A stretch of DNA of 64,000 nt from a virus, in IMG/VR virus record IMGVR_UViG_3300045988_112234, positions 51,374 to 115,373 of that record. One strand, 5' to 3'. Numbering within the stretch: position 1 is the first letter of the stretch; every line of letters starts with the position of its first letter. Shown here piece after piece: positions 6,236 to 64,000 of the stretch. The translations under genes and the position numbers were made by a program. The notes beneath the pieces were generated by a model, which had not been told where the DNA came from, searched no databases, and saw only the letters and a program-made list of their open reading frames with translations.

Positions 6236-7229
6236 AAATTATATTAAATATGTTTATATCTGTAGAATTATAAGGAATTTCATAATGATTATTTACAAAT
6301 GCTTTATATCTTAAGTATTTTCTAGTTAGATATATTGAGCAATTATCATATAAATAATGTAAGAACTCAATACTTTCTGATTTTTTAAGTTTTAAATTGT
6401 AATAATCATGTACAGTATGGCACAACTAAATTAAGCTATTATTTTGATTACTATATTCCGCTATTTTAGTTACTAACTGTAAAGTTCCAAGTACTGAACA
6501 TCTAGGAACTATTCCATATTTATATTTATTATAACTAATACAACCATCACCATCGAAATATCCCCTAATAAAATGTCTAATTAAATCTTTGGATTTAAAG
6601 ATATTTTCATCAGGAAATTTAAGAGTTAAGGATTTATTAGGAGTACATACATATTTATTTAAAGTCTGCCACAAATGTTTATTAGAGGCTGCCCAAATAC
6701 AACTATTAGTATTTTGTCTTATATTAACTGTTCCAGACATAAAAGTATTAAATTTATGTAAATGCTCAATATCAGAATTTTTTAAAGTTATATTTAAAGT
6801 GTACGTCTAAATTTTTTTAGTAACAGTCTTAATATTACCATCAGCATAAATGAACCCTAACCAATACGCTTTTTCTTCAGTATCAATAGAATCAAATATA
6901 GTTTCTGATATCCTAGATTCAATCTGCTTATTTTTAATATTGTAACCTAAATTTTTTAACTTTTCAGATAATGTAGTTCTACTAGTATGATAAACATCTG
7001 CTAAATATCTAAGACTTTTTCCTTCCTTCCAAGGTTTTATTATATCTTTATCAAAATCTTTTATTAATGATTTCTTAGGATTATGCTAAGTTATATTCCA
7101 AGTTCTTAGATTTTCTAAAATAGAATTTTTAGAGACTTTATATTTTTCACTAAGTTCAGTTATTGAAATTCCATCAATATAATCCTATATTAGATTTTGT
7201 TTAATATTATTTAAATCTTTCCTAAACAT
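6234..7229 (-). CDS. LAGLIDADG homing endonuclease paralog with N-terminal HTH; intact 331-codon reading frame only if four in-frame TAG codons (7185, 7086, 6807, 6426) are read through
   Basis: ATG at 7227-7229, TAA at 6234-6236, no TAA/TGA in frame. Translation MFRKDLNNIKQNLI*DYIDG...DTEEKAYWLGFIYADGN...LIRHFIRGYFDGDGC... is colinear with the standard-code paralog 17132-18088. The ORF track breaks it at each TAG. Confidence 0.7.
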
Positions 7230-7233
7230 AAAT

Positions 7234-7253
7234 AGGGAGGATTACTCCTCCCT
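7234..7253 (-). terminator. hairpin agggagg-agtaat-cctccct between 7260-7940 and the recoded endonuclease gene; also carries a GGAGG just upstream of its ATG
   Basis: perfect 7-bp inverted repeat. Confidence 0.4.
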
Positions 7254-29614: not shown

Positions 29615-29682
29615 TGCAAGATGTGGGAATCAAACCCACTGGTTGGAAGCCAGATATGCGCCTTCAGTTACACTAATCTTGC
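29615..29682 (-). tRNA. short (68-nt) tRNA-like gene, anticodon loop CTTCCAA (anticodon UCC, Gly?) with an atypical D/variable region
   Basis: perfect 7-bp acceptor GCAAGAT/ATCTTGC; T-arm GTGGG-TTTGATT-CCCAC. Confidence 0.45.
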
Positions 29683-50510: not shown

Positions 50511-50681
50511 CTTAGCGCTTTAGGCTTTTTATAAGAAGCCTTAACTTAATAAAGTTCTCGCATAATTTATAACCAAAAACAGATAAATAATTCCATTTTC
50601 ACAAACAGAATTTTTACCGAAAACTTAGAAAATTCTTAAAACTTATGAGTATAAAACATCGAATATGAATAATAATAGAGT

Positions 50682-50753
50682 AAATATGGACAGACTCGAA
50701 CTGTCAACCTCTGGTTACCTAGCCAGTGCCCTACCGCTTTAAACTACATATTT
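50682..50753 (-). tRNA. tRNA-like gene with an 8-nt anticodon loop CTAGGTAA on a 4-bp stem (identity unresolved)
   Basis: good acceptor AAATATG/CATATTT and T-arm GACAG-TTCGAGT-CTGTC; the anticodon stem fits only as CTGG/CCAG with an 8-nt loop. Confidence 0.4.
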
Positions 50754-52089: not shown

Positions 52090-52155
52090 GAATAAAATAC
52101 TATTCTCATGAACCATATTTTCCAACTACAAGTTCACAATTTGTCATAAATGTTG

Positions 52156-52230
52156 CGGAGAAAGAAGGATTCGAACCTTCGAGCTAACACCTTAGCAGGG
52201 TGCCACTTTCGACCGCTCAGTCATTTCTCC
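52156..52230 (-). tRNA. tRNA with anticodon GCU (Ser-type) but a short class-I variable loop
   Basis: acceptor GGAGAAA/TTTCTCC, anticodon stem GCACC/GGTGT, loop CTGCTAA, T-arm GAAGG-TTCGAAT-CCTTC. Confidence 0.5.
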
Positions 52231-52865: not shown

Positions 52866-52935
52866 TACGGTAGAAAGGATTCGAACCAATGACCTATTAT
52901 AAAAAGAGATGCTTTAACCACTGAGCTACTACCGT
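52866..52935 (-). tRNA. degenerate tRNA-like gene (perfect acceptor ACGGTAG/CTACCGT, AT-rich anticodon arm with loop TTTTATA, weak T-stem); possible pseudogene
   Basis: hand fold has a mismatched anticodon stem and T-stem ATTGG/CCTTT. Confidence 0.3.
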
Positions 52936-55247: not shown

Positions 55248-55590
55248 ATATTCTTGGTTCTGTATTAATGTTTTTAGAACTCATATATTGGTAAAGCCAT
55301 TTAACATTATTTACAACAAAAGTGTTACCTTTTATATCTGTAAATAATATTTTCTTGTACTTATCCATAATTAGTCCCGATAATACTAACAAAGGATTTC
55401 TAATATATGCTGCAAATGTTCCCCCCTTTATACTTTCTCCAGAAATAATTCTTAATGTATTATTAAGATATTGATATTTCTTATTGAAAGCATTAGCATA
55501 GTTAGCATTAGAAATATTGTACTCTGCATCAATCTGTGCTGAGAGCATTATTACTAAATCTCCCAGAGTATTGTGATTCATTGTTACCAT
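55240..55590 (-). CDS. hypothetical protein (116 aa)
   Basis: ORF. Confidence 0.5.
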   Translation of the reverse strand: MVTMNHNTLGDLVIMLSAQIDAEYNISNANYANAFNKKYQYLNNTLRIISGESIKGGTFAAYIRNPLLVLSGLIMDKYKKILFTDIKGNTFVVNNVKWLYQYMSSKNINTEPRIYG

Positions 55591-56061
55591 TGATAAATTC
55601 CTCCCAAAGATAATGTTTCTAAGTCACTCTTGATTGGAAGTTCTTTACCATGAATAGCTTTGTACTCCTTACTTACTTGTGCAATAGTTTTCTTTTTAGA
55701 AAAGACTAATGCTGTAATCTTAATAATGTCTTTTGTCTCCATTTTTTTAAACTATTTAATTATTAATAATGTGCCATCACCTTTCTCATTAAGAGTCTGC
55801 TACTTTGGATATGCAGGATGTAGGTTTACACTAGAGCTCTATCTGTCACAGACCGAACTCTAATATTTGTCTTTGTTGTGTTTATGGACATAGTAGATTA
55901 CTAAAGTAACTAGCCACAGACCGAACTAGCGAAAATGATCTAAATTGTATATTGTTGATAACTATTTTATTTTAAAAATACATAAGTCTTGTCTTATGAT
56001 TAACCAATTTTCTTTCCAAGATGTCAACTATTTATTATACTCTATAGTACTAGAGTGCAGC

Positions 56062-56436
56062 TTAATAAACTTCACTTCTTAAAGATTCATAGCCTTCATA
56101 TAATGGAAATTCTGAATTAAGAGTAATCTTAATAAAGACTCTGTTGTCGATAGTTACAAGTCCTACAGTTTTAATATTGCGATTACAATTATCAAAACTA
56201 GTACAAATAACTGTATTAGAGGTAAAATCTTCTATGCCTTTAAAACCCATATCAGCAAGAACCTTACATATAGGTGTTAAGTAATAAATTTTACCTTCCT
56301 TGATAACACAAGAAGAAAATGGAATTACTCTATCACTAATGTGATAAGTTCTAGCATCATGATCTATTATGAGAGCCTTACCTGCAAGACTCTCACAACC
56401 TGATACAATTTTTTTATTTAAGTTCTCTGTATTCAT
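56062..56436 (-). CDS. hypothetical protein (124 aa)
   Basis: ORF. Confidence 0.5.
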   Translation of the reverse strand: MNTENLNKKIVSGCESLAGKALIIDHDARTYHISDRVIPFSSCVIKEGKIYYLTPICKVLADMGFKGIEDFTSNTVICTSFDNCNRNIKTVGLVTIDNRVFIKITLNSEFPLYEGYESLRSEVY

Positions 56437-58109: not shown

Positions 58110-58240
58110 TAAATAACTAAATTTAATTTTACTAGCCATTAATTTCCTAAAAATTAACTAAATTTAATTTAAAAATTAACTAAATTTAATTTAAAAATTA
58201 ACTACTAGCCATTAATTTCCTAAAAAATAACGGGGGGGGG
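58110..58240. promoter_or_regulatory. divergent control region: iteron-like repeats taactaaatttaattt (x3) and actagccattaatttcctaaaaa (x2) followed by a G9 homopolymer
   Basis: repeats at about 58114, 58155, 58177 and 58131, 58203; cggggggggg at 58231-58240; sits between the minus gene starting at 58019 and the plus cassette starting at 58327. Confidence 0.4.
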
Positions 58241-58326: not shown

Positions 58327-58443
58327 ATGAATAAATTAATTTTAATTAAAACAAATGTTAATATGAAACAAATAGAGTCAATTAAAGTTGGAGTGGGTGG
58401 AGAGATATTATTAGCTTGTTAGTGCTCTGCCAGATATATTTAA
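58327..58443 (+). CDS. small ORF (38 codons) with one in-frame TAG at 58420
   Basis: MNKLILIKTNVNMKQIESIKVGVGGEILLAC*CSARYI, TAA stop. Confidence 0.35.
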
Positions 58444-58449
58444 GAGATA

Positions 58450-58659
58450 ATGAAGAATTTTATAAGTTATCTAAAGCAGAGTCTAATGTATTAGCTTACT
58501 TCTAATTATTATGAAGATAAAGATAGGGCACTTCCAGGAAATAAGATTTCTTTAGATGAAGAACTTAGAGATACTATTAAAATTAAAACTAACTTAGCTG
58601 CTGGAACTATACGTAATACTATTACTCCTTTAGTAAAGAAAAAGATGTTTACTATTTAA
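58450..58659 (+). CDS. small ORF (69 codons) with one in-frame TAG at 58492
   Basis: MKNFISYLKQSLMY*LTSNYYEDKDRALPGNKISLDEELRDTIKIKTNLAAGTIRNTITPLVKKKMFTI, TAA stop. Confidence 0.45.
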
Positions 58660-58950
58660 ATCCTGAATACTTTTTTAAAGGTAAAATATCTGATAGAACT
58701 CAAATTATAAAAAATATAATTGAGTATAAGTTTATTTAGTAATTGAATTTTTAAAATTTTAATTTAAAAATCTTAGAATATTAACTTTTACAAAAATTAA
58801 CTTTTTAATATTCTCTACCTCGACTATATTACTCGCGTAATCAAAAAGAAATATTAAATGAATAAAGAACAACTAATACAAAGTATTAAAGACCTTCCTG
58901 ATTAGTATAATATAAATTTATAGGTTATTGATAATGTAATTCATATAACC

Positions 58951-59160
58951 ATGACTAAAAAGGTAGATGAATTTGAAGAATATTGTAGTAAATTAGATGA
59001 TGAAACATTTAACAATGCTTGTCTAATATTTGGAATTATCTCAGATATATCTTTAGAAGATTTTTCTTCTAATTTAGATAATTCTAAATATAAAAAATAT
59101 AAACAAGAATTTAAACACATAGTGGATTTTTTAAATGATAGAAACATTACAAAAAATTAA
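58951..59160 (+). CDS. small hypothetical protein (69 aa), standard code
   Basis: ORF in the plus-strand cassette. Confidence 0.45.
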   Translation: MTKKVDEFEEYCSKLDDETFNNACLIFGIISDISLEDFSSNLDNSKYKKYKQEFKHIVDFLNDRNITKN

Positions 59161-59322
59161 TAAGATAGTTCCTAATCTTACAGTATCTCAATTAATAGAA
59201 CTAGTAAATATTATTAATGGTTTTAAAAGATATACCACATTTATTACAATAAACACTAGTGATAATAAAACTACTTCTACTGAAAATCCTTTTAGTGTTA
59301 GTAGTTATTTATAAGATAATAT

Positions 59323-59394
59323 TCTCCTATGGTGTAATGGTTAGCACAGAAGACTCTAAATCTTTTAGTCAGGGTTCGAATCCTTGTGGGAGAA
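59323..59394 (+). tRNA. amber suppressor tRNA, anticodon CUA (tRNA-Sup; amino acid identity not determinable, Gln is the usual assignment in TAG-recoding phages)
   Basis: acceptor TCTCCTA/TGGGAGA, D-arm GTGT-AATGGTTA-GCAC, anticodon stem GAAGA/TCTTT, loop CTCTAAA (U33-CUA-A37), variable TAGT, T-arm CAGGG-TTCGAAT-CCTTG; 72 nt. Confidence 0.8.
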
Positions 59395-59469
59395 GAATAG
59401 CGTAAGTAGAAACCTCCACGTGGTGCTATTCGGATAACGCTAATTCTACTTTAAAAACATAATCTTCAA

Positions 59470-59751
59470 ATGATAGCAGCAATTTATGAATTAAATGGTA
59501 AGATTTTAAAAACAACTAATCTTACTAAAAAATTAAAACGATTAAAATCAGAACCTAAGATTCTATTTCAATTAGAGAATGGAACAGAAGCTGATTTAGA
59601 CCAATGGATTAAAGATAACCAAAATATAAATTCTAATTCAGAAGAAGATATTGAAATTAAAAAATATCATTATAGAAATCCAATTACAGGATATACAATG
59701 ACTTCTATATATGATAATCTAGATGTTAATGATTATATAAAAATTGATTAA
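59470..59751 (+). CDS. small hypothetical protein (93 aa), standard code
   Basis: ORF directly downstream of tRNA-Sup. Confidence 0.45.
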   Translation: MIAAIYELNGKILKTTNLTKKLKRLKSEPKILFQLENGTEADLDQWIKDNQNINSNSEEDIEIKKYHYRNPITGYTMTSIYDNLDVNDYIKID

Positions 59752-59909
59752 TGACTAACAAAGAATTAAAAGGCTTAAAGTCTAAAATGAACAAAGTACT
59801 TAATGAAGTACAGTAGATTATTGATACTATAGGAGATAATGATTTACAAGATAATCAATTAACTCTTGATTTTTGCGATAAGTTAAATGAATTATCTGTT
59901 ACTTATTAA
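59751..59909 (+). CDS. small ORF (52 codons) with one in-frame TAG at 59814; ATG overlaps the TAA of the upstream ORF
   Basis: MTNKELKGLKSKMNKVLNEVQ*IIDTIGDNDLQDNQLTLDFCDKLNELSVTY, TAA stop. Confidence 0.4.
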
Positions 59910-59951
59910 TAAATATTTGGGGATGGATATTTATTAATTTTAAAAAAAAAT

Positions 59952-59985
59952 AGCCGAGGCTTCTCATTTGAGAAACTTCGGCTAT
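59952..59985. terminator. bidirectional terminator: 15-17-bp stem agccgaggcttctca/tgagaaacttcggct flanked by an A9 run and a T-rich stretch
   Basis: between the end of the plus cassette and the convergent minus-strand late gene ending at about 60103. Confidence 0.6.
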
Positions 59986-60102
59986 TGTGGTATTATTGCT
60001 TTATATACAAAAAATTTCCTCCACCAGCATCATATTCTAATAAATCATCTCTGGTAAATATTTTATCAAAGGTTCTTAATCCTGAATGATATCTAGAGTA
60101 TT

Positions 60103-60660
60103 TTTAACATTGTTTCTAGATTTCATAGCCTCTATCTCATCTCTAATATTATCTATACTTCCAGAAACTAAACGAACTTCTTTACCAGCCTATATAATTA
60201 TTCTTCCTCCAGCTATAGAACCATATTCATCAGTTATATTATTATTAGCTAAGAAATTTAATCTGTTATTTACAGTATAGCATGGACTTTTTTTAGAACC
60301 ATTAGAATTACTTTCCATGAATAATACATTATCTTTAGAATCTGTTTTAAAACCAGTTTTAAATGTTGAAGAAATCATACTTCCATTAGGAATATCTGAA
60401 TATTTACCAAAAACAAATTTACCAATAGAATCTATACCTATATAATTCTAATTATTAGGAGATATACTTTCTTTAGATTTGAAATTAGAAAAAGCAGTAA
60501 TAGGAGCTGCTATACTATTTATAGGAGTATAATTACCTCTATTTCTATAACCAAAAGTATGCTTTGTTAAGGATTCTGGTATACGATATCTTCTAGAGTT
60601 TATTTTAGTAGTATCATTTATAGTTTGGAGATATTTCTATTTCTCTCCTCTTATTTTTAG
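60103..60660 (-). CDS. late (structural-looking, N/S/T/G-rich) protein gene segment with in-frame TAG codons at 60190, 60448 and 60637; TAA stop at about 60103; start not resolved
   Basis: track ORF 60190-60378 ends on TAG and continues 29 more sense codons to a TAA; upstream the frame is open to a TAA at 60661 except for TAGs. Confidence 0.45.
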
Positions 60661-60956
60661 TTACTTTTTTATTAGGAATTTTAATTCTTTTACTAGTATG
60701 CTCAGGTTCTGAATCAAAAAATAACTATAGTTTTCTACTTAATCCATTTCCTACTAAATTAATCAACTATTTACCACTATTGTTTCTTCTTTCTATTTAG
60801 GAGTAGATATTTTTTTAGCAGTGGGCATTTCTTTATATTTTGCCGGGTGGTAGATGTTGGTTTCTACTCCTTTAGCCTAAACCTATGGAAATATTATACT
60901 TTATCAGAATTAATTTTAAAAGGGATCTTATTTGATTACCATACAACTACCCATCT

Positions 60957-61377
60957 TCATACCAGTATTGAATCATTATCAGTATACAGCCATGGTGTTC
61001 TTACTATTACTGGAGTTCCTAATTTATTTAATATTTTTAATCCTAATACAGCTTTACTGTCTAAATCATATGAACTCCATTTCTACTTATATTCATCAGG
61101 ATTAAACTTCCAAATATCTTGTGCTCTATATACTTTCTTACCATTAGATGTTCCTTCCTAAACTAAATGTCCAGCAGTATCTCCAAAGTCTAGATTATTA
61201 TTAGCACCTTTCCAAGGAGTTTTATTAGTTATATTAGAAGCTTTCTATATAGGTTTCTTAGTAAAGAAATCTAAAGTTTCTGTATTTTCATATACAGGAA
61301 TATCTTTATAAGGTTTCTTATATAATTTTAATGTGCTACATTTATCTTTCTTACTCCATAAGAAGGATTTATAGTTT
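60957..61377 (-). CDS. late gene segment ending in TGA at about 60957 with three in-frame TAG codons within about 100 codons; start not resolved
   Basis: ...KPYKDIPVYENTETLDFFTKKPI*KASNITNKTPWKGANNNLDFGDTAGHLV*EGTSNGKKVYRAQDIWKFNPDEYK*KWSSYDLDSKAVLGLKILNKLGTPVIVRTPWLYTDNDSILV-TGA. Confidence 0.35.
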
Positions 61378-64000
61378 TATTATATAAATCATATCATTGC
61401 CTTTAGCTGCTTTCTAAAATCCAGTATATGCTTCAGGAGCATAGGTATTGTAACCTACACCAGTTGATATATAACTCCAGCATGTTTTTTAGGACTTGCC
61501 TTATGCATATTATATACTATGTCTTCTATAGGATTCGCATTATTCTCATAGCTACTTCTACTCCACGTTTTAAAGGAACTTTTACAGCATATCCTATTAC
61601 AGAAGCATTACTAAATAATTACTAGCTTTAGTTGGATTCTTAGATATATCTAAAGCACCTTTAGTATAATCATATACTGCCTAAGCAGCTGGAGCTAAAG
61701 CATAACCTATTCCTGAATTAACTAATGCTTTAATAGGACTAGTATTATTATTCCAACTATCTACTTCTCTAGCATAAGCTCCTTTTATAGGATGGGTTCT
61801 ATTCTTATTACTATAATTATATAATTTAGAATTAGTATGCCCACCCTATTTTATAGTCCTACAAATACATCTTGTACCCCATTTAAAGTTCTAACGGGAA
61901 TAACTCTCTACTAATATTTAGCACCAAGATATGAAGCTAGGATGATTTAATCTATTATAATATTCCATATCTATAGCCATCTATTTATTCCGAGTATTAT
62001 TATTTACTCCTTTATTTTGTTTACTCTCATCTACTATTGGCATATTTATACTTTATTTTTCCATATACTAGTTATACTATCTATACCTAGTAATCCCATA
62101 CAACAATATAAAACTGTATCTATCATATCAGGAGCTTGTATCTAACTAATAGAACAGTATATTAGAATAATTAAACTTACTATCCATCCTAATATTCCAC
62201 ACACTCTTTTACTACTTATTCCAGTATGTGCTGTTATTAATTTAATTAAAAACTATTTCATATTTTTTCACATAGTTTTAATAAAGAATCTAGAGTAATC
62301 TCAGAATATGATATTTCTACTGGGTTTTCCATAGTAATCCTTTTTCAGTTTTAATCATCTGTTTCATATTTTTTTAAATATTTATCCCATAACTATTTAT
62401 CCCTCTCACTTACAAAATCTAAAAATCTTTGTAATTCTTCAATTTTTTCTGTCAAAATATATGTATCCATTATTATTTTTATTAGGTTTTAAATTAAATC
62501 CACTACCTTTAGTTTTAGTAATATACAATGTTGGGAGACTCCATCATAAACTACTTTAGTTCCACCATTATTATAGTCATAATCGGAACCTAGATAGTCC
62601 ATAGTATAATCTAAAGGCTAACCACTATTAGGTTTTATATATTGATCTTTACTTATTATTATCTCTACTCCAAGATTTATCTCCTAAATCTGGATAAGTC
62701 GGATGAGTTTTAGTTTTATAAGTCCCTGAAGCTCCTTCATCAGGAAAATGCCCAGTAGGAATATACCTATTCCAATTATGTGCTAGAATACTATTTAACT
62801 ATAGCCAAGCTACTATAGGTTGGTCATTATAGTATTTTCTATAATCGTAATGGTCTTTATACCCCATGCTTGAGATAACTATTTATTCCAAATATTATAA
62901 TTATTATTATTTATTTCTGGCATGTATATCAATAATATTAGGTATAATCTAAATAGGTAACTATATCTTAGGACTTAATTTAATAACATCATTTGCTATT
63001 ATAGTATTCCATTTAGCTACCTATTCTAAATAAGATCTATTTAATTCCTAAGATGTGAAGTATGAACCTTGACTTGGTCGAACTCCTTTTTTAGCTAATT
63101 TTTTAGTAGTTTCTTTTTTCTACTAATTTAATACTACGTCGACTTGTCTCTTCCGCATAGCATTAACTCTTGGAGATTAGGGTAATAATCAGGTAGATCT
63201 AAGAAGTTTAGAACCTCCTTTAGTTAAAGTTGTTGCAAATTTAGCTCCTAATATATCTGCCCCAGTTTCTAAAGTATTCCATACAGCGCTTCCAAAATTA
63301 CTTGGGGATTCTTTAAAAATCTTGTACCATCCTCTACCAGCTATAGCTAAAGAAGGCAACTAACCTACTCCAGCAATAATTCCTCCTATAGGAGCACCTA
63401 CAGCGGTAGTACTTATACCTGCACCTAGTCCTAAACTACCTAAAGATATAGCTGCCGCAGTAGGTTCTCATTTATCTGCTTGACGATCTAATTCTTCAAA
63501 AATTTCAGGCATTTCTAAATTTATTTATATATTTTGCAACACTAATACCATTGGCATCAGACCCTCCTGCAATACCATGTTTATAATAATTTTTAGTCCA
63601 TGTTGGACTTAACCATGATGCTGCTATAGCTTCTCCAGTAACTGCTATACCATTATTTCTTAAAAATCTTGCATTAGCATCATATAATTGTGATGCGGCT
63701 AATACTTGTGCATCAGGACTATTTTTAAACTGTTCTCTAGATAAATTAGAATATTTATTTCTAGTACCATCTATAAGCTAGAACCATCCAGTAGCAGAAC
63801 TATTTTTAGATTGAGCTTTAGAATTAAATCCTGATTCTAGAGAAGCTATCTTCATTAAAGTAATTTTCTTGTTTCCAGTGATACCATATTTATCTAAAGT
63901 CTATTCTAGTACCTATTTATTTTTACTAGGCTTGTTTCCAGTGATTAAAGTCTATTCTAGTACCTATTTATTTTTACTAGGCTTGTTTCCAGTGATACCA
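61378..64000 (-). other. remainder of the minus-strand late-gene block; the standard-code ORF track is fragmentary here, consistent with TAG-recoded coding sequence (gene boundaries unresolved)
   Basis: high density of plus-strand cta triplets; the only track ORFs are short antisense ones. Confidence 0.4.
63868..64000. repeat. tandem direct repeat of about 51 bp (about 2.5 copies; unit aaagtctattctagtacctatttatttttactaggcttgtttccagtgat) running into the window edge
   Basis: 63896-63945 and 63947-63996 are identical; cttgtttccagtgatacca recurs at 63868 and 63982. Confidence 0.6.

What the first reader, a model, noticed from the sequence alone, without database searches (positions are those of the whole stretch)
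60103..64000. Late-gene block downstream of the suppressor tRNA is written with TAG as a sense codon; standard-code ORF calling collapses here
Track ORF 60190-60378 stops at TAG, yet the same frame continues as plausible protein (AGKEVRLVSGSIDNIRDEIEAMKSRNNVKNTLDIIQD) to a TAA near 60103, followed by a strong terminator. Upstream, the frame is open back to 60660 apart from two more TAGs. A second segment ending in TGA at about 60957 has three TAGs in about 100 codons. Elsewhere in the window (0-58 kb) minus-strand ORFs are long and contiguous in standard code, so recoding is confined to the late block. This fits a lytic switch where late genes are translatable only after the suppressor tRNA is made. 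By hand I could not assemble ATG-initiated full genes: stop-free segments occur in different frames. Either real frameshifts or indels are present, or my hand reading is incomplete.
Basis: partly seen in the sequence, partly recalled or inferred. Interest (0 to 1): 0.7.

Follow-up and report, generated by a model that had tools for sequence, protein, structure and literature searches.

The report
Amber-recoded phage genes riddled with deletions
This is the edge of the late-gene module of a ~172-kb human-gut phage that reads the TAG stop codon as glutamine (a known trick), but in this strain four of those genes have been broken by about 40 short deletions, which is why no full genes could be assembled by hand.

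Summary
In 60-64 kb, open frames of at least 100 codons cover 10% of the sequence in the standard code and 70% with TAG read as sense. An amber-suppressor tRNA (anticodon CTA) sits at 59322-59395. TAG means glutamine. TAG exchanges mainly with CAA/CAG among relatives, and a TAG aligns with the conserved Q of phiKZ gp144's 'SSATGWFQF' motif. TAG makes up 57% of Gln-type codons in a relative's late genes and none in 16 early genes of the window. This is the published recoded-phage pattern, so it is a new member of a known kind.

Compared with all 8-21 close relatives, which have intact TAG-sense genes, this strain lacks about 40 segments of 6-28 nt between 58.3 and 63.35 kb. The same deletions appear in assemblies made with several different pipelines. 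Other lineages from other studies carry different deletion sets in the same genes. The deletions avoid the SLT gene, a small membrane-protein gene, the suppressor tRNA and two small ORFs (0 found, 9.9 expected). They are therefore real mutations filtered by selection, and four genes are pseudogenes here.

Why this size class of deletion accumulates faster than substitutions is unexplained. Recoding is also not strictly confined to the late block.

The parts
59322..59395 (+). Amber-suppressor tRNA, anticodon CTA. ARAGORN labels it 'Pyl' only because of the anticodon. It has U1-A72 and G73.
   Evidence: ARAGORN. Rfam tRNA model, 63.6 bits. Conserved in relatives. 82-87% identical to tRNA-Gln genes annotated in several phage genomes, including crAss-like ones.
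63505..64000 (-). 3' part of gene H, an SLT / phiKZ gp144-like lytic transglycosylase. It is intact and runs off the window end (259 codons in a twin contig). In-frame TAGs are present.
   Evidence: Pfam SLT (PF01464) E = 3.2e-9 for the L001 ortholog. The window sequence aligns to PDB 3BKH/9XPS with its TAG opposite Q of SSATGWFQF and with the E-S catalytic motif conserved. Full ORF seen in L109. No lineage-specific deletions.
63895..63996 (-). 51-nt in-frame tandem repeat (2 copies here) in the N-terminal part of gene H. Copy number varies between assemblies of the same strain.
   Evidence: TRF. L095 and L109 comparison.
62907..63512 (-). Gene G remnant (Gly-rich, hydrophobic protein of 218 codons in relatives). 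It is broken by deletions of 12, 11, 7 and 9 nt and by a strain-specific TGG-to-TGA change at 63468-63470.
   Evidence: TGA is found only in the window and its twin contigs; all 22 other loci that contain this site have TGG.
62489..62925 (-). Gene F remnant (188 codons in relatives), split over two frames by deletions of 13, 11 and 7 nt.
62046..62261 (-). Gene D, a small membrane protein (71 codons plus stop, 2 in-frame TAGs). Intact.
   Evidence: 96.9% identical to L001 without gaps. phrog_1322 'membrane protein', E = 3.5e-4. No deletions in any decayed lineage.
60990..62043 (-). Gene B remnant. The intact form has 378 codons (cluster P0032, 2919 member sequences) and unknown function. About 12 deletions of 7-12 nt spread it over three frames.
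60076..60985 (-). Gene A remnant (about 300 codons in relatives, unknown function). About 16 deletions of 6-13 nt. The premature TAA at 60076-60078 arises from a frame shift; in relatives the gene ends just before the terminator.
59942..59986 (-). Intrinsic terminator (16-pair interrupted stem followed by U9) ending the minus-strand operon. It lies between the two converging gene sets.
   Evidence: Fold of -22.6 kcal/mol, z = -6.4, 0 of 200 shuffles as stable.
59470..59909 (+). Two small intact ORFs after the tRNA: 59470-59751 (no TAG) and 59751-59909 (1 TAG). 98.7% identical to L001.
   Evidence: No deletions in any decayed lineage.
58354..59314 (+). Small + strand ORFs upstream of the tRNA. 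58354-58760 is a remnant of a 153-codon gene, broken by deletions of 8, 8, 11 and 28 nt. 58858-59160 is intact with 2 TAGs. 59135-59314 is shortened by deletions of 26 and 7 nt.
6237..7241 (-). LAGLIDADG homing-endonuclease gene with 4 in-frame TAGs, inside the standard-code replication block.
   Evidence: phrog_4645, E = 3.2e-53 over residues 17-313, which span the TAG positions.
55587..56078 (-). Frame of 164 codons that is open only with TAG as sense (7 TAGs). It lies in the 'early' side and also carries lineage-specific deletions of 12, 7, 9 and 20 nt. No family match, so coding is not shown.

Best explanation
The region 58.3-64 kb is the near edge of the TAG-to-glutamine recoded late/lysis module of a ~172-kb phage from human gut metagenomes. 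It sits next to the phage's own amber-suppressor tRNA.

Shown: TAG is a sense codon in conserved genes, it corresponds to Gln, and the replication genes use the standard code.

Inferred from the literature: these genes can be translated only once the tRNA(CUA) is expressed, which would delay them until late in infection.

This strain has a second layer. Genes A, B, F and G and some small upstream ORFs are pseudogenes. About 40 deletions of 6-28 nt (mostly 7-13 nt) cut them up. Close relatives lack these deletions and have intact TAG-sense genes. The SLT lytic-transglycosylase gene, the small membrane-protein gene D, the suppressor tRNA and two small ORFs have been kept free of deletions by selection.

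The deletion process itself is real, recurrent in several lineages, faster than base substitution, without microhomology or a motif, and with almost no 1-5 nt events. Its mechanism is unexplained.
For: Recoding:
- Open-frame coverage in 60-64 kb is 0.10 in code 11 and 0.70 with TAG as sense; the TGA-sense control gives 0.18.
- Relatives have TAG-sense ORFs of 188-349 codons with 4-10 TAGs each and no TAA or TGA.
- At TAG sites among relatives, TAG exchanges with CAA/CAG in 16 of 30 distinct exchanges and never with TAA or TGA.
- A window TAG aligns with the conserved Q of phiKZ gp144.
- Late ORFs of relative L001 hold 57 TAG, 40 CAA and 3 CAG. Sixteen early ORFs of the window hold 0 TAG, 110 CAA and 67 CAG.
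- Polymorphism among intact relatives is richest at third codon positions of the TAG-sense frames (144/92/255 for positions 1/2/3).
- The tRNA(CTA) is supported. Early genes are replication genes.

Deletions are real:
- They are absent from all 8-21 relatives that cover each site.
- Contigs from five ENA assembly records with three different contig-naming styles (SPAdes-like NODE_*_cov, MEGAHIT-like k127_*, and 'scaffold_') match the window at 99.7-100% identity with at most 2 gap openings each. The assemblers are inferred from the names.
- Other lineages from other datasets (SRR24139404 and SAMN06110413; ERR7783523, ERR10682928 and SAMEA9464225; OMEK01000005) carry different sets of 6-14 nt deletions in the same genes.
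- L006 and L105 (k-mer coverage 17) are 0.6-0.7% diverged from the window and already carry 4 of its deletions.
- Deletions avoid H, D, the tRNA and two small ORFs: window 0 against 9.9 expected (P = 8e-6), L114 0 against 6.7 (P = 4e-4), L112 1 in-frame event against 6.4.
- Private substitutions in decayed lineages show no third-position excess (28/18/22).
- A strain-specific TGG-to-TGA change lies in gene G.
- TAG-rich genes just beyond the window end are intact in this strain.
- The two window-specific deletions that lie in the large ATPase ORF (9 and 15 nt) are in frame.
Against: - No proteomic or expression evidence exists for TAG read-through or for late timing in this phage.
- The deletion size spectrum (almost none under 6 nt, no microhomology) is unlike ordinary spontaneous indels, so an unrecognised technical cause cannot be fully excluded without reads.
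- The window strain is assembled at only about 4-5x k-mer coverage.
- Several of the agreeing assemblies may come from the same reads.
Confidence: 0.8

Rival explanations
1. The frame-breaking deletions are technical artefacts of assembly, consensus building or sequencing. The strain would then carry intact recoded genes like its relatives.
For: The size spectrum is odd: 7-13 nt, almost nothing under 6 nt, and microhomology close to random expectation (mean 1.29 against 0.87). k-mer coverage is low, 3.8-5.5. Contigs of one strain from different samples differ mainly by such indels: L114 and L115 differ by 2 SNPs and 8 indels.
Against: The same junctions appear in contigs with three different naming styles, so apparently from different assemblers. 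They also appear in Logan contigs and in a 17x-coverage contig. An identical decayed sequence is found in two datasets with 0 mismatches over 7 kb. Deletions avoid functional elements (P = 8e-6) and are in frame in the ATPase ORF. Artefacts would not do either. Private substitutions look unconstrained in these lineages, and a nonsense mutation accompanies the deletions.
Confidence: 0.08
2. The genes are still expressed despite the deletions, through programmed frameshifting, ribosome hopping or RNA-level repair. The block would then be functional in this strain.
For: Each fragment stays open in its ancestral frame. That is expected anyway shortly after a deletion.
Against: More than 30 frame changes in 3.3 kb would each need their own signal. 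The junctions share no motif. Sequence is missing, not extra, so bypassing cannot restore the lost residues. Private substitutions show no third-codon-position excess. Gene G also has a TGA nonsense codon. Deletion sets differ between lineages.
Confidence: 0.02
3. TAG is decoded as an amino acid other than glutamine (for example Pyl, Trp, Tyr or Lys), or is merely leaky read-through.
For: ARAGORN labels the tRNA 'Pyl'. Some TAG exchanges are with TGG, TAT, AAG and AAA.
Against: The 'Pyl' label only reflects the anticodon. CAA/CAG account for 16 of 30 exchanges, and TAG-to-CAA needs two base changes. The TAG aligns with an invariant Q in a solved homolog. CAG is nearly absent where TAG is abundant. 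The tRNA resembles phage tRNA-Gln genes. No Pyl machinery was looked for or seen.
Confidence: 0.04
4. The 60-64 kb stretch is simply non-coding or dead DNA in the standard code. The TAG-sense frames would be a by-product of AT-rich composition.
For: Reading TAA as sense opens as much sequence (0.71) as reading TAG as sense (0.70) in this stretch.
Against: Relatives have long TAG-sense ORFs with purifying selection on those frames. The SLT domain spans TAG positions. Thousands of homologous proteins are found. The TGA-sense control gives only 0.18.
Confidence: 0.01

Closest known systems
Stop-codon-recoded gut phages (code 15, TAG = Gln) with recoding biased to structural and lysis genes: crAss-like, Lak, Agate, Sapphire, Jade and others (Borges et al., bioRxiv 10.1101/2021.08.26.457843; Peters et al., PMC9523058)
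   Same: Low GC content and a phage-encoded tRNA(CUA). In-frame TAGs occur in late/lysis genes but not in replication genes. A homing endonuclease carrying in-frame stops sits inside an early region, as those authors also describe. The genome size of about 172 kb falls in the range of the large clades they name.
   Different: Clade membership was not tested. The tRNA here sits among small ORFs that themselves contain TAGs, not in a standard-code 'code-change module' with an aaRS or release factor. This strain carries pseudogenised recoded genes.
phiKZ gp144 endolysin / SLT lytic transglycosylases (PDB 3BKH, 9XPS; Pfam PF01464)
   Same: The catalytic E-S motif and the 'SSATGWFQ' motif are conserved in window gene H.
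   Different: Only about 40 residues align significantly (E = 2e-4). The role (endolysin or virion-associated enzyme) is not determined. The Q codon is TAG.
12-bp indels of archaeal rudiviruses and lipothrixviruses (reviewed in PMC4390879, section 7.3)
   Same: Many short indels of a characteristic length arise inside ORFs of closely related virus variants. They are discussed there in the context of CRISPR avoidance, and their mechanism is unknown.
   Different: Those indels are 12 bp. Here lengths run from 6 to 14 nt with no preference for multiples of three in the decayed genes, and four genes are destroyed. The hosts are bacteria of the human gut.
Deletion escapers from type III CRISPR-Cas (Thermus phage phiFa, PMC7515739; it cites Pyenson et al. 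2017)
   Same: Escape is by deletion rather than point mutation. Deletions are in frame in an essential gene and in any frame in a non-essential gene. No PAM is involved. This matches the pattern here: the two window-specific deletions in the ATPase ORF are in frame, deletions in genes A, B, F and G fall in any frame, and no motif is found.
   Different: No matching spacer was found in a single 20-mer scan. Hot-spotting is weak. Dozens of hits per gene are far more than is needed to escape a few spacers. The laboratory escapers in non-essential genes had longer deletions (99-270 bp).

Membership tests
TAG-to-Gln recoded phage (genetic code 15) with late-gene bias | In-frame TAG codons inside conserved protein-coding genes | tested here: met
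   Relatives have TAG-sense ORFs of 188-349 codons with 4-10 TAGs each. Third-position-rich polymorphism fits those frames. SLT and LAGLIDADG family matches span TAG positions.
TAG-to-Gln recoded phage (genetic code 15) with late-gene bias | Phage-encoded suppressor tRNA with anticodon CUA | tested here: met
   59322-59395. ARAGORN and Rfam (63.6 bits) both call it; it is conserved in relatives.
TAG-to-Gln recoded phage (genetic code 15) with late-gene bias | TAG corresponds to Gln in homologs | tested here: met
   TAG exchanges with CAA/CAG in 16 of 30 cases. TAG lies opposite Q in phiKZ gp144. TAG is 57% of Gln-type codons in late ORFs.
TAG-to-Gln recoded phage (genetic code 15) with late-gene bias | Replication / early genes written in the standard code | tested here: met
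   Sixteen early ORFs have 0 TAG in 6205 codons. Ten of them were annotated, mostly as replication or nucleotide-metabolism proteins such as NrdD, primase, DnaB and helicase. Exceptions: the LAGLIDADG endonuclease at 6237-7241 and the frame at 55587-56078.
TAG-to-Gln recoded phage (genetic code 15) with late-gene bias | TAG-containing genes are translated with Gln at TAG, late in infection, in a standard-code host | not testable with these tools
   Needs metaproteomics, transcript timing and host identification. The genome scan gave only distant hits in MAGs.
SLT-domain lytic transglycosylase | Catalytic Glu in the E-S motif and the downstream A-T-G-x-x-Q motif | tested here: met
   Window 'ASLESGF...SSATGWF(TAG)L' aligns with 'ASIESAF...SSATGWFQF' of 3BKH. 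Pfam PF01464 scores 36.8 bits against a cut-off of 21.3 for the ortholog.
Group I intron in a tRNA anticodon loop (applies to relatives L001, L002, L003 and L112, not to the window) | Insertion in the anticodon loop, U at the end of the 5' exon, G at the end of the intron, and a recognisable group I core | tested here: inconclusive
   The insertion lies between anticodon nucleotides 35 and 36. The exon ends in T and the insert ends in G. It carries an HNH ORF. Rfam found no group I intron at E <= 0.01.
CRISPR-escape deletions | Deletions overlap protospacers matched by host spacers | tested here: inconclusive
   One 20-mer at a recurrently deleted site gave 0 hits in 185,579 species genomes. 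This is far too narrow a test.
CRISPR-escape deletions | A PAM at a fixed distance from the deletions (for PAM-dependent types) | tested here: not met
   No enrichment of TTTV, NGG, CCN or other motifs at any offset (maximum 0.05 against background 0.03). This does not bear on the PAM-less type III systems.

The most novel reading that the evidence does not exclude
The short deletions may not be ordinary decay. They could be the footprint of a specific process acting on this phage group. One candidate is repeated escape from a mismatch-tolerant, PAM-less nucleic-acid-guided defence such as type III CRISPR, where only deletions of about 6 nt or more abolish targeting. The other is a replication or repair quirk that removes 6-14 nt without microhomology. 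Either process would act genome-wide, with selection allowing only in-frame events in needed genes and any event in dispensable ones. This would be a bacterial-phage counterpart of the unexplained 12-bp indels of archaeal rudiviruses, seen in natural human-gut populations and accumulating faster than point mutations. The window has 34 private deletions against 16 private substitutions in the block. Two contigs of one strain differ by 8 indels and 2 SNPs.
Probability: 0.3. Interest if true: 0.7.

Novelty: new member of a known kind. Interest (0 to 1): 0.42.

Why it matters
The recoding adds one more well-supported lineage of large gut phage to a known class. Public records of this lineage, such as MT835539.1, are unannotated. 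Annotating it with code 11 will shatter its late genes.

There is also a practical lesson. Code-15 gene calling is not enough here, because this strain's genes A, B, F and G are truly broken. Comparison with relatives is needed before calling proteins.

The part that could matter more is the deletion pattern. Several circulating lineages have independently riddled the same four conserved genes with 6-14 nt deletions, while sparing the neighbouring lysis-type genes and the suppressor tRNA. If this reflects defence escape or a distinctive mutational mechanism, these public metagenomes offer a natural time series in which to study it.

Tried and rejected
1. Rejected: the deletions are 6-28 nt and not in homopolymers.
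2. Slippage, microhomology-mediated joining, or assembly joins at overlaps. Microhomology averages 1.29 nt against 0.87 at random, and 16 of 38 junctions have none.
3. Cas12a- or Cas9-type escape with a PAM at a fixed distance, or any shared motif. No signal.
4. Deletions triggered at mismatches in heteroduplexes (endonuclease VII idea). Deleted segments are not enriched for polymorphic sites.
5. Strong hot spots. Only weak: 31 near-coincident events against 21.5 +/- 4.2 expected. The 16 identical shared deletions against 1.3 expected fit common descent or recombination.
6. A single mutator clade. The decayed lineages are polyphyletic by SNP distance, and intact lineages show the same kind of event, mostly in multiples of three.
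7. A link to loss of the suppressor tRNA. The tRNA is intact, and neighbouring TAG-rich genes are intact in this strain.
8. Compensating deletion pairs. By my own count from the list, 3 of 8 close pairs sum to a multiple of three, which is chance level.
10. Host or spacer evidence. A 20-mer scan of species genomes gave 0 hits. A protein scan gave only 26-32% identical hits in a Muribaculaceae MAG and a Bacilli MAG.
11. Group I intron model for the insertion in the relatives' tRNA. No Rfam hit.
Full report
**What is in the sequence**

The window is 30% GC. It carries 11 ordinary tRNA genes on the minus strand and one tRNA with anticodon CTA at 59322-59395 on the plus strand (Rfam 63.6 bits).

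In 60001-64000, stop-to-stop frames of at least 100 codons cover 10% of the sequence in the standard code. They cover 70% if TAG is read as sense and 18% if TGA is read as sense instead.

One runs from 60660 to a TAA at 60076-60078 (193 codons, 3 TAGs). Another runs from 61376 to a TGA at 60957-60959 (139 codons, 3 TAGs).

The minus-strand genes and the plus-strand tRNA cluster converge on this terminator. The block is therefore next to the tRNA, not downstream of it.

**Relatives**

A human-gut phage record (MT835539.1, unannotated, fetched as L001) matches 57-64 kb at 87-99% identity. More than 20 further relatives came from IMG/VR and from ENA and Logan assemblies, most on contigs of about 94-181 kb.

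Read with TAG as sense, L001 has a tidy row of minus-strand genes. I call them A (305 codons, 8 TAGs), B (349, 10 TAGs), C, D (72), E, F (188), G (218), H (225) and so on. None contains TAA or TGA in frame.

**TAG means glutamine**

- At sites where one relative has TAG, others most often have CAA or CAG (16 of 30 distinct exchanges). TAG-to-CAA needs two base changes. TAA and TGA never appear.
- Gene H has an SLT domain (Pfam PF01464, E = 3e-9).
- The window's copy aligns with the phiKZ gp144 lytic transglycosylase (PDB 3BKH). Its TAG lies opposite the Q of 'SSATGWFQF', and the catalytic E-S motif is conserved.
- In L001's late genes, TAG supplies 57 of 100 Gln-type codons and CAG only 3. In 16 early genes of the window there are 0 TAG, 110 CAA and 67 CAG.
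- Polymorphism among intact relatives is concentrated at third positions of the TAG-sense frames (144/92/255), so these frames are under purifying selection.
- The tRNA has U1-A72 and G73 and is 82-87% identical to annotated tRNA-Gln genes of several phage genomes, including crAss-like ones.

**Early versus late**

The large ORFs of 0-58 kb that I annotated encode NrdD, exonucleases, primase, a DnaB-type helicase, another helicase, NAMPT and an ATPase. All are in the standard code. This matches the published picture of recoded gut phages, in which replication genes use the standard code and structural and lysis genes use the alternative code. The authors propose that this delays late and lysis proteins until the suppressor tRNA acts (Borges et al., bioRxiv 10.1101/2021.08.26.457843). 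I could not test timing or translation.

The confinement is not absolute:
- A LAGLIDADG homing-endonuclease gene at 6237-7241 has four in-frame TAGs (phrog_4645, E = 3e-53). Borges et al. also noted recoded intron endonucleases in early genes.
- A frame at 55587-56078 is open only with TAG as sense and has seven TAGs. It has no family match.
- Two small plus-strand ORFs beside the tRNA contain TAGs.
- Eight of 79 standard-code ORFs end in TAG.

**Why the frames hop**

Aligned with every relative that covers each site (8 to 21 loci), the window alone lacks about 40 short segments between 58324 and 63341. Most are 7-13 nt, with extremes of 6 and 28. Base substitutions are few. Only two 1-nt deletions, one 1-nt insertion and one 3-nt insertion accompany them.

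These deletions sit exactly where the reading frame changes. For example, the 8-nt loss at 60624 and the 7-nt loss at 60778 bracket the stretch that reads in another frame. A TGG-to-TGA change in gene G is also private to this strain.

In this strain, genes A, B, F and G, and two of the small ORFs upstream of the tRNA, are broken. In relatives, gene A runs on to just before the terminator.

**Artefact or real?**

I first suspected an artefact, because the size spectrum is strange. The evidence points the other way.

1. Contigs from five ENA assembly records match the window at 99.7-100% identity with at most two gap openings each. Their names follow three styles: SPAdes-like 'NODE_*_cov', MEGAHIT-like 'k127_*' and 'scaffold_'. 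The assemblers are inferred from these names.
2. Other lineages from unrelated datasets carry their own sets of 6-14 nt deletions in the same genes. These are OMEK01000005; SRR24139404 with a Schirmer-cohort sample; and ERR7783523, ERR7783535, ERR10682928 with two 'MCDO18' samples. The sets overlap only partly with the window's.
3. The lineages are polyphyletic by SNP distance. The window's nearest neighbours (L006 and L105; L105 has k-mer coverage 17) are 0.6-0.7% diverged and already have four of its deletions.
4. The deletions avoid particular elements. None falls in the SLT gene H, gene D, the suppressor tRNA or the two small ORFs after it. The counts are 0 against 9.9 expected in the window lineage (P = 8e-6), 0 against 6.7 in another lineage, and one 18-nt in-frame event against 6.4 in a third.
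5. Elsewhere in the window the same kind of deletion occurs at low density: 0.3 per kb in 22-42 kb and about 1 per kb in 45-58 kb. In the large ATPase ORF the two events are 9 and 15 nt, so in frame. Other events hit tRNAs and small or non-coding stretches.
6. Substitutions private to decayed lineages show no third-position excess (28/18/22), unlike those of intact lineages.
7. In this strain, the recoded genes just beyond the window end are intact and TAG-rich.

Artefacts would not respect gene function. These are real mutations filtered by selection.

**What makes the deletions**

This remains unexplained. The process is fast relative to substitution. The window has 34 private deletions against 16 private substitutions in the block. 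Two contigs of one strain from different samples differ by 2 SNPs and 8 indels, and every indel is a loss in the same contig.

Several candidate causes were tested:
- Junction microhomology is near random.
- No motif or PAM lies at any fixed distance.
- There is no excess at polymorphic sites.
- Clustering between lineages is only weak beyond deletions shared by descent or recombination.
- Intact lineages show occasional events of the same size class, mostly multiples of three. The process therefore seems general to the group, and selection decides what survives.

Two literature parallels are worth naming. One is the unexplained 12-bp indels of archaeal rudiviruses and lipothrixviruses, which are discussed in the context of CRISPR avoidance (PMC4390879). 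The other is phage escapers from type III CRISPR. They carry deletions that are in frame in an essential gene and in any frame in a non-essential one (PMC7515739).

My single spacer scan found nothing, and that test was far too narrow to count against the idea.

It is also unknown why genes A, B, F and G are dispensable in some lineages yet conserved in others. These genes have no family or fold match.

**Verdict**

It is an instance of a known phenomenon. The claimed confinement to the late block is only approximately true, and the lytic-switch idea is untested here.

The unresolved frame problem is explained by genuine, lineage-specific short deletions that have made pseudogenes of four recoded genes. 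That deletion pattern is the one unusual thing in the region.

Noticed in passing
L001 14416-15490 (MT835539.1); also L002, L003 and L112. Corresponds to window 59322-59395.: In several relatives the suppressor tRNA is split between anticodon nucleotides 35 and 36 by about 1 kb that carries an HNH-endonuclease ORF with no TAGs. The 5' exon ends in T and the insert ends in G, as in group I introns. Rfam found no intron model. The window's tRNA is uninterrupted.
   Followed up: partly
window 52866-52935; L001 5797-5881, L012 11509-11593, L016 11555-11639, L022 11558-11642: Relatives carry an 85-nt tRNA with anticodon TTA, called 'tRNA-Stop' by ARAGORN and so a possible ochre suppressor. One relative's copy is read as Tyr-ATA instead. 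In the window it has the strain-specific 14-nt deletion at 52896 and ARAGORN no longer calls it.
   Followed up: partly
window 50680-50753: A tRNA-like gene with an abnormal anticodon loop ('aggt' here; 'ta' or 'tt' in relatives) is conserved across the group.
   Followed up: no
window 52155-52230 and 29639: tRNA-Ser(GCT) lacks 13 nt that all relatives have (76 nt here against 89 nt; I take the missing piece to be the variable arm). A tRNA-like sequence near 29639 has lost 10 nt. The same deletion process therefore also damages tRNA genes in this strain.
   Followed up: partly
window 6237-7241 (-): A LAGLIDADG homing-endonuclease gene with four in-frame TAGs lies inside the standard-code replication block. 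It is a few kb from an NrdD ORF (297-2066) that matches only part of the NrdD profile, so it may be an intron- or intein-associated insertion.
   Followed up: partly
window 63895-63996 and 58148-58204: A 51-nt in-frame tandem repeat lies in the SLT gene, and a 22-nt tandem repeat lies in the divergent intergenic region. Their copy numbers differ between assemblies of the same strain, and at least two assemblies' contigs end within about 50 nt of these repeats.
   Followed up: partly
L001 late ORFs A-J compared with window early ORFs: CAG is almost absent from the recoded genes (3 CAG, 57 TAG, 40 CAA) but common in early genes (67 CAG, 110 CAA). TAG seems to have taken over the role of CAG.
   Followed up: partly
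L001 24249-26189 and 28985-33364: Beyond the window, the relative's module holds a 647-codon TAG-free ORF with intein-like LAGLIDADG motifs, and terminase-like fragments interrupted by LAGLIDADG endonuclease ORFs. I identified these by eye from the translations; no family search was run. Selfish elements appear dense in this phage group.
   Followed up: no
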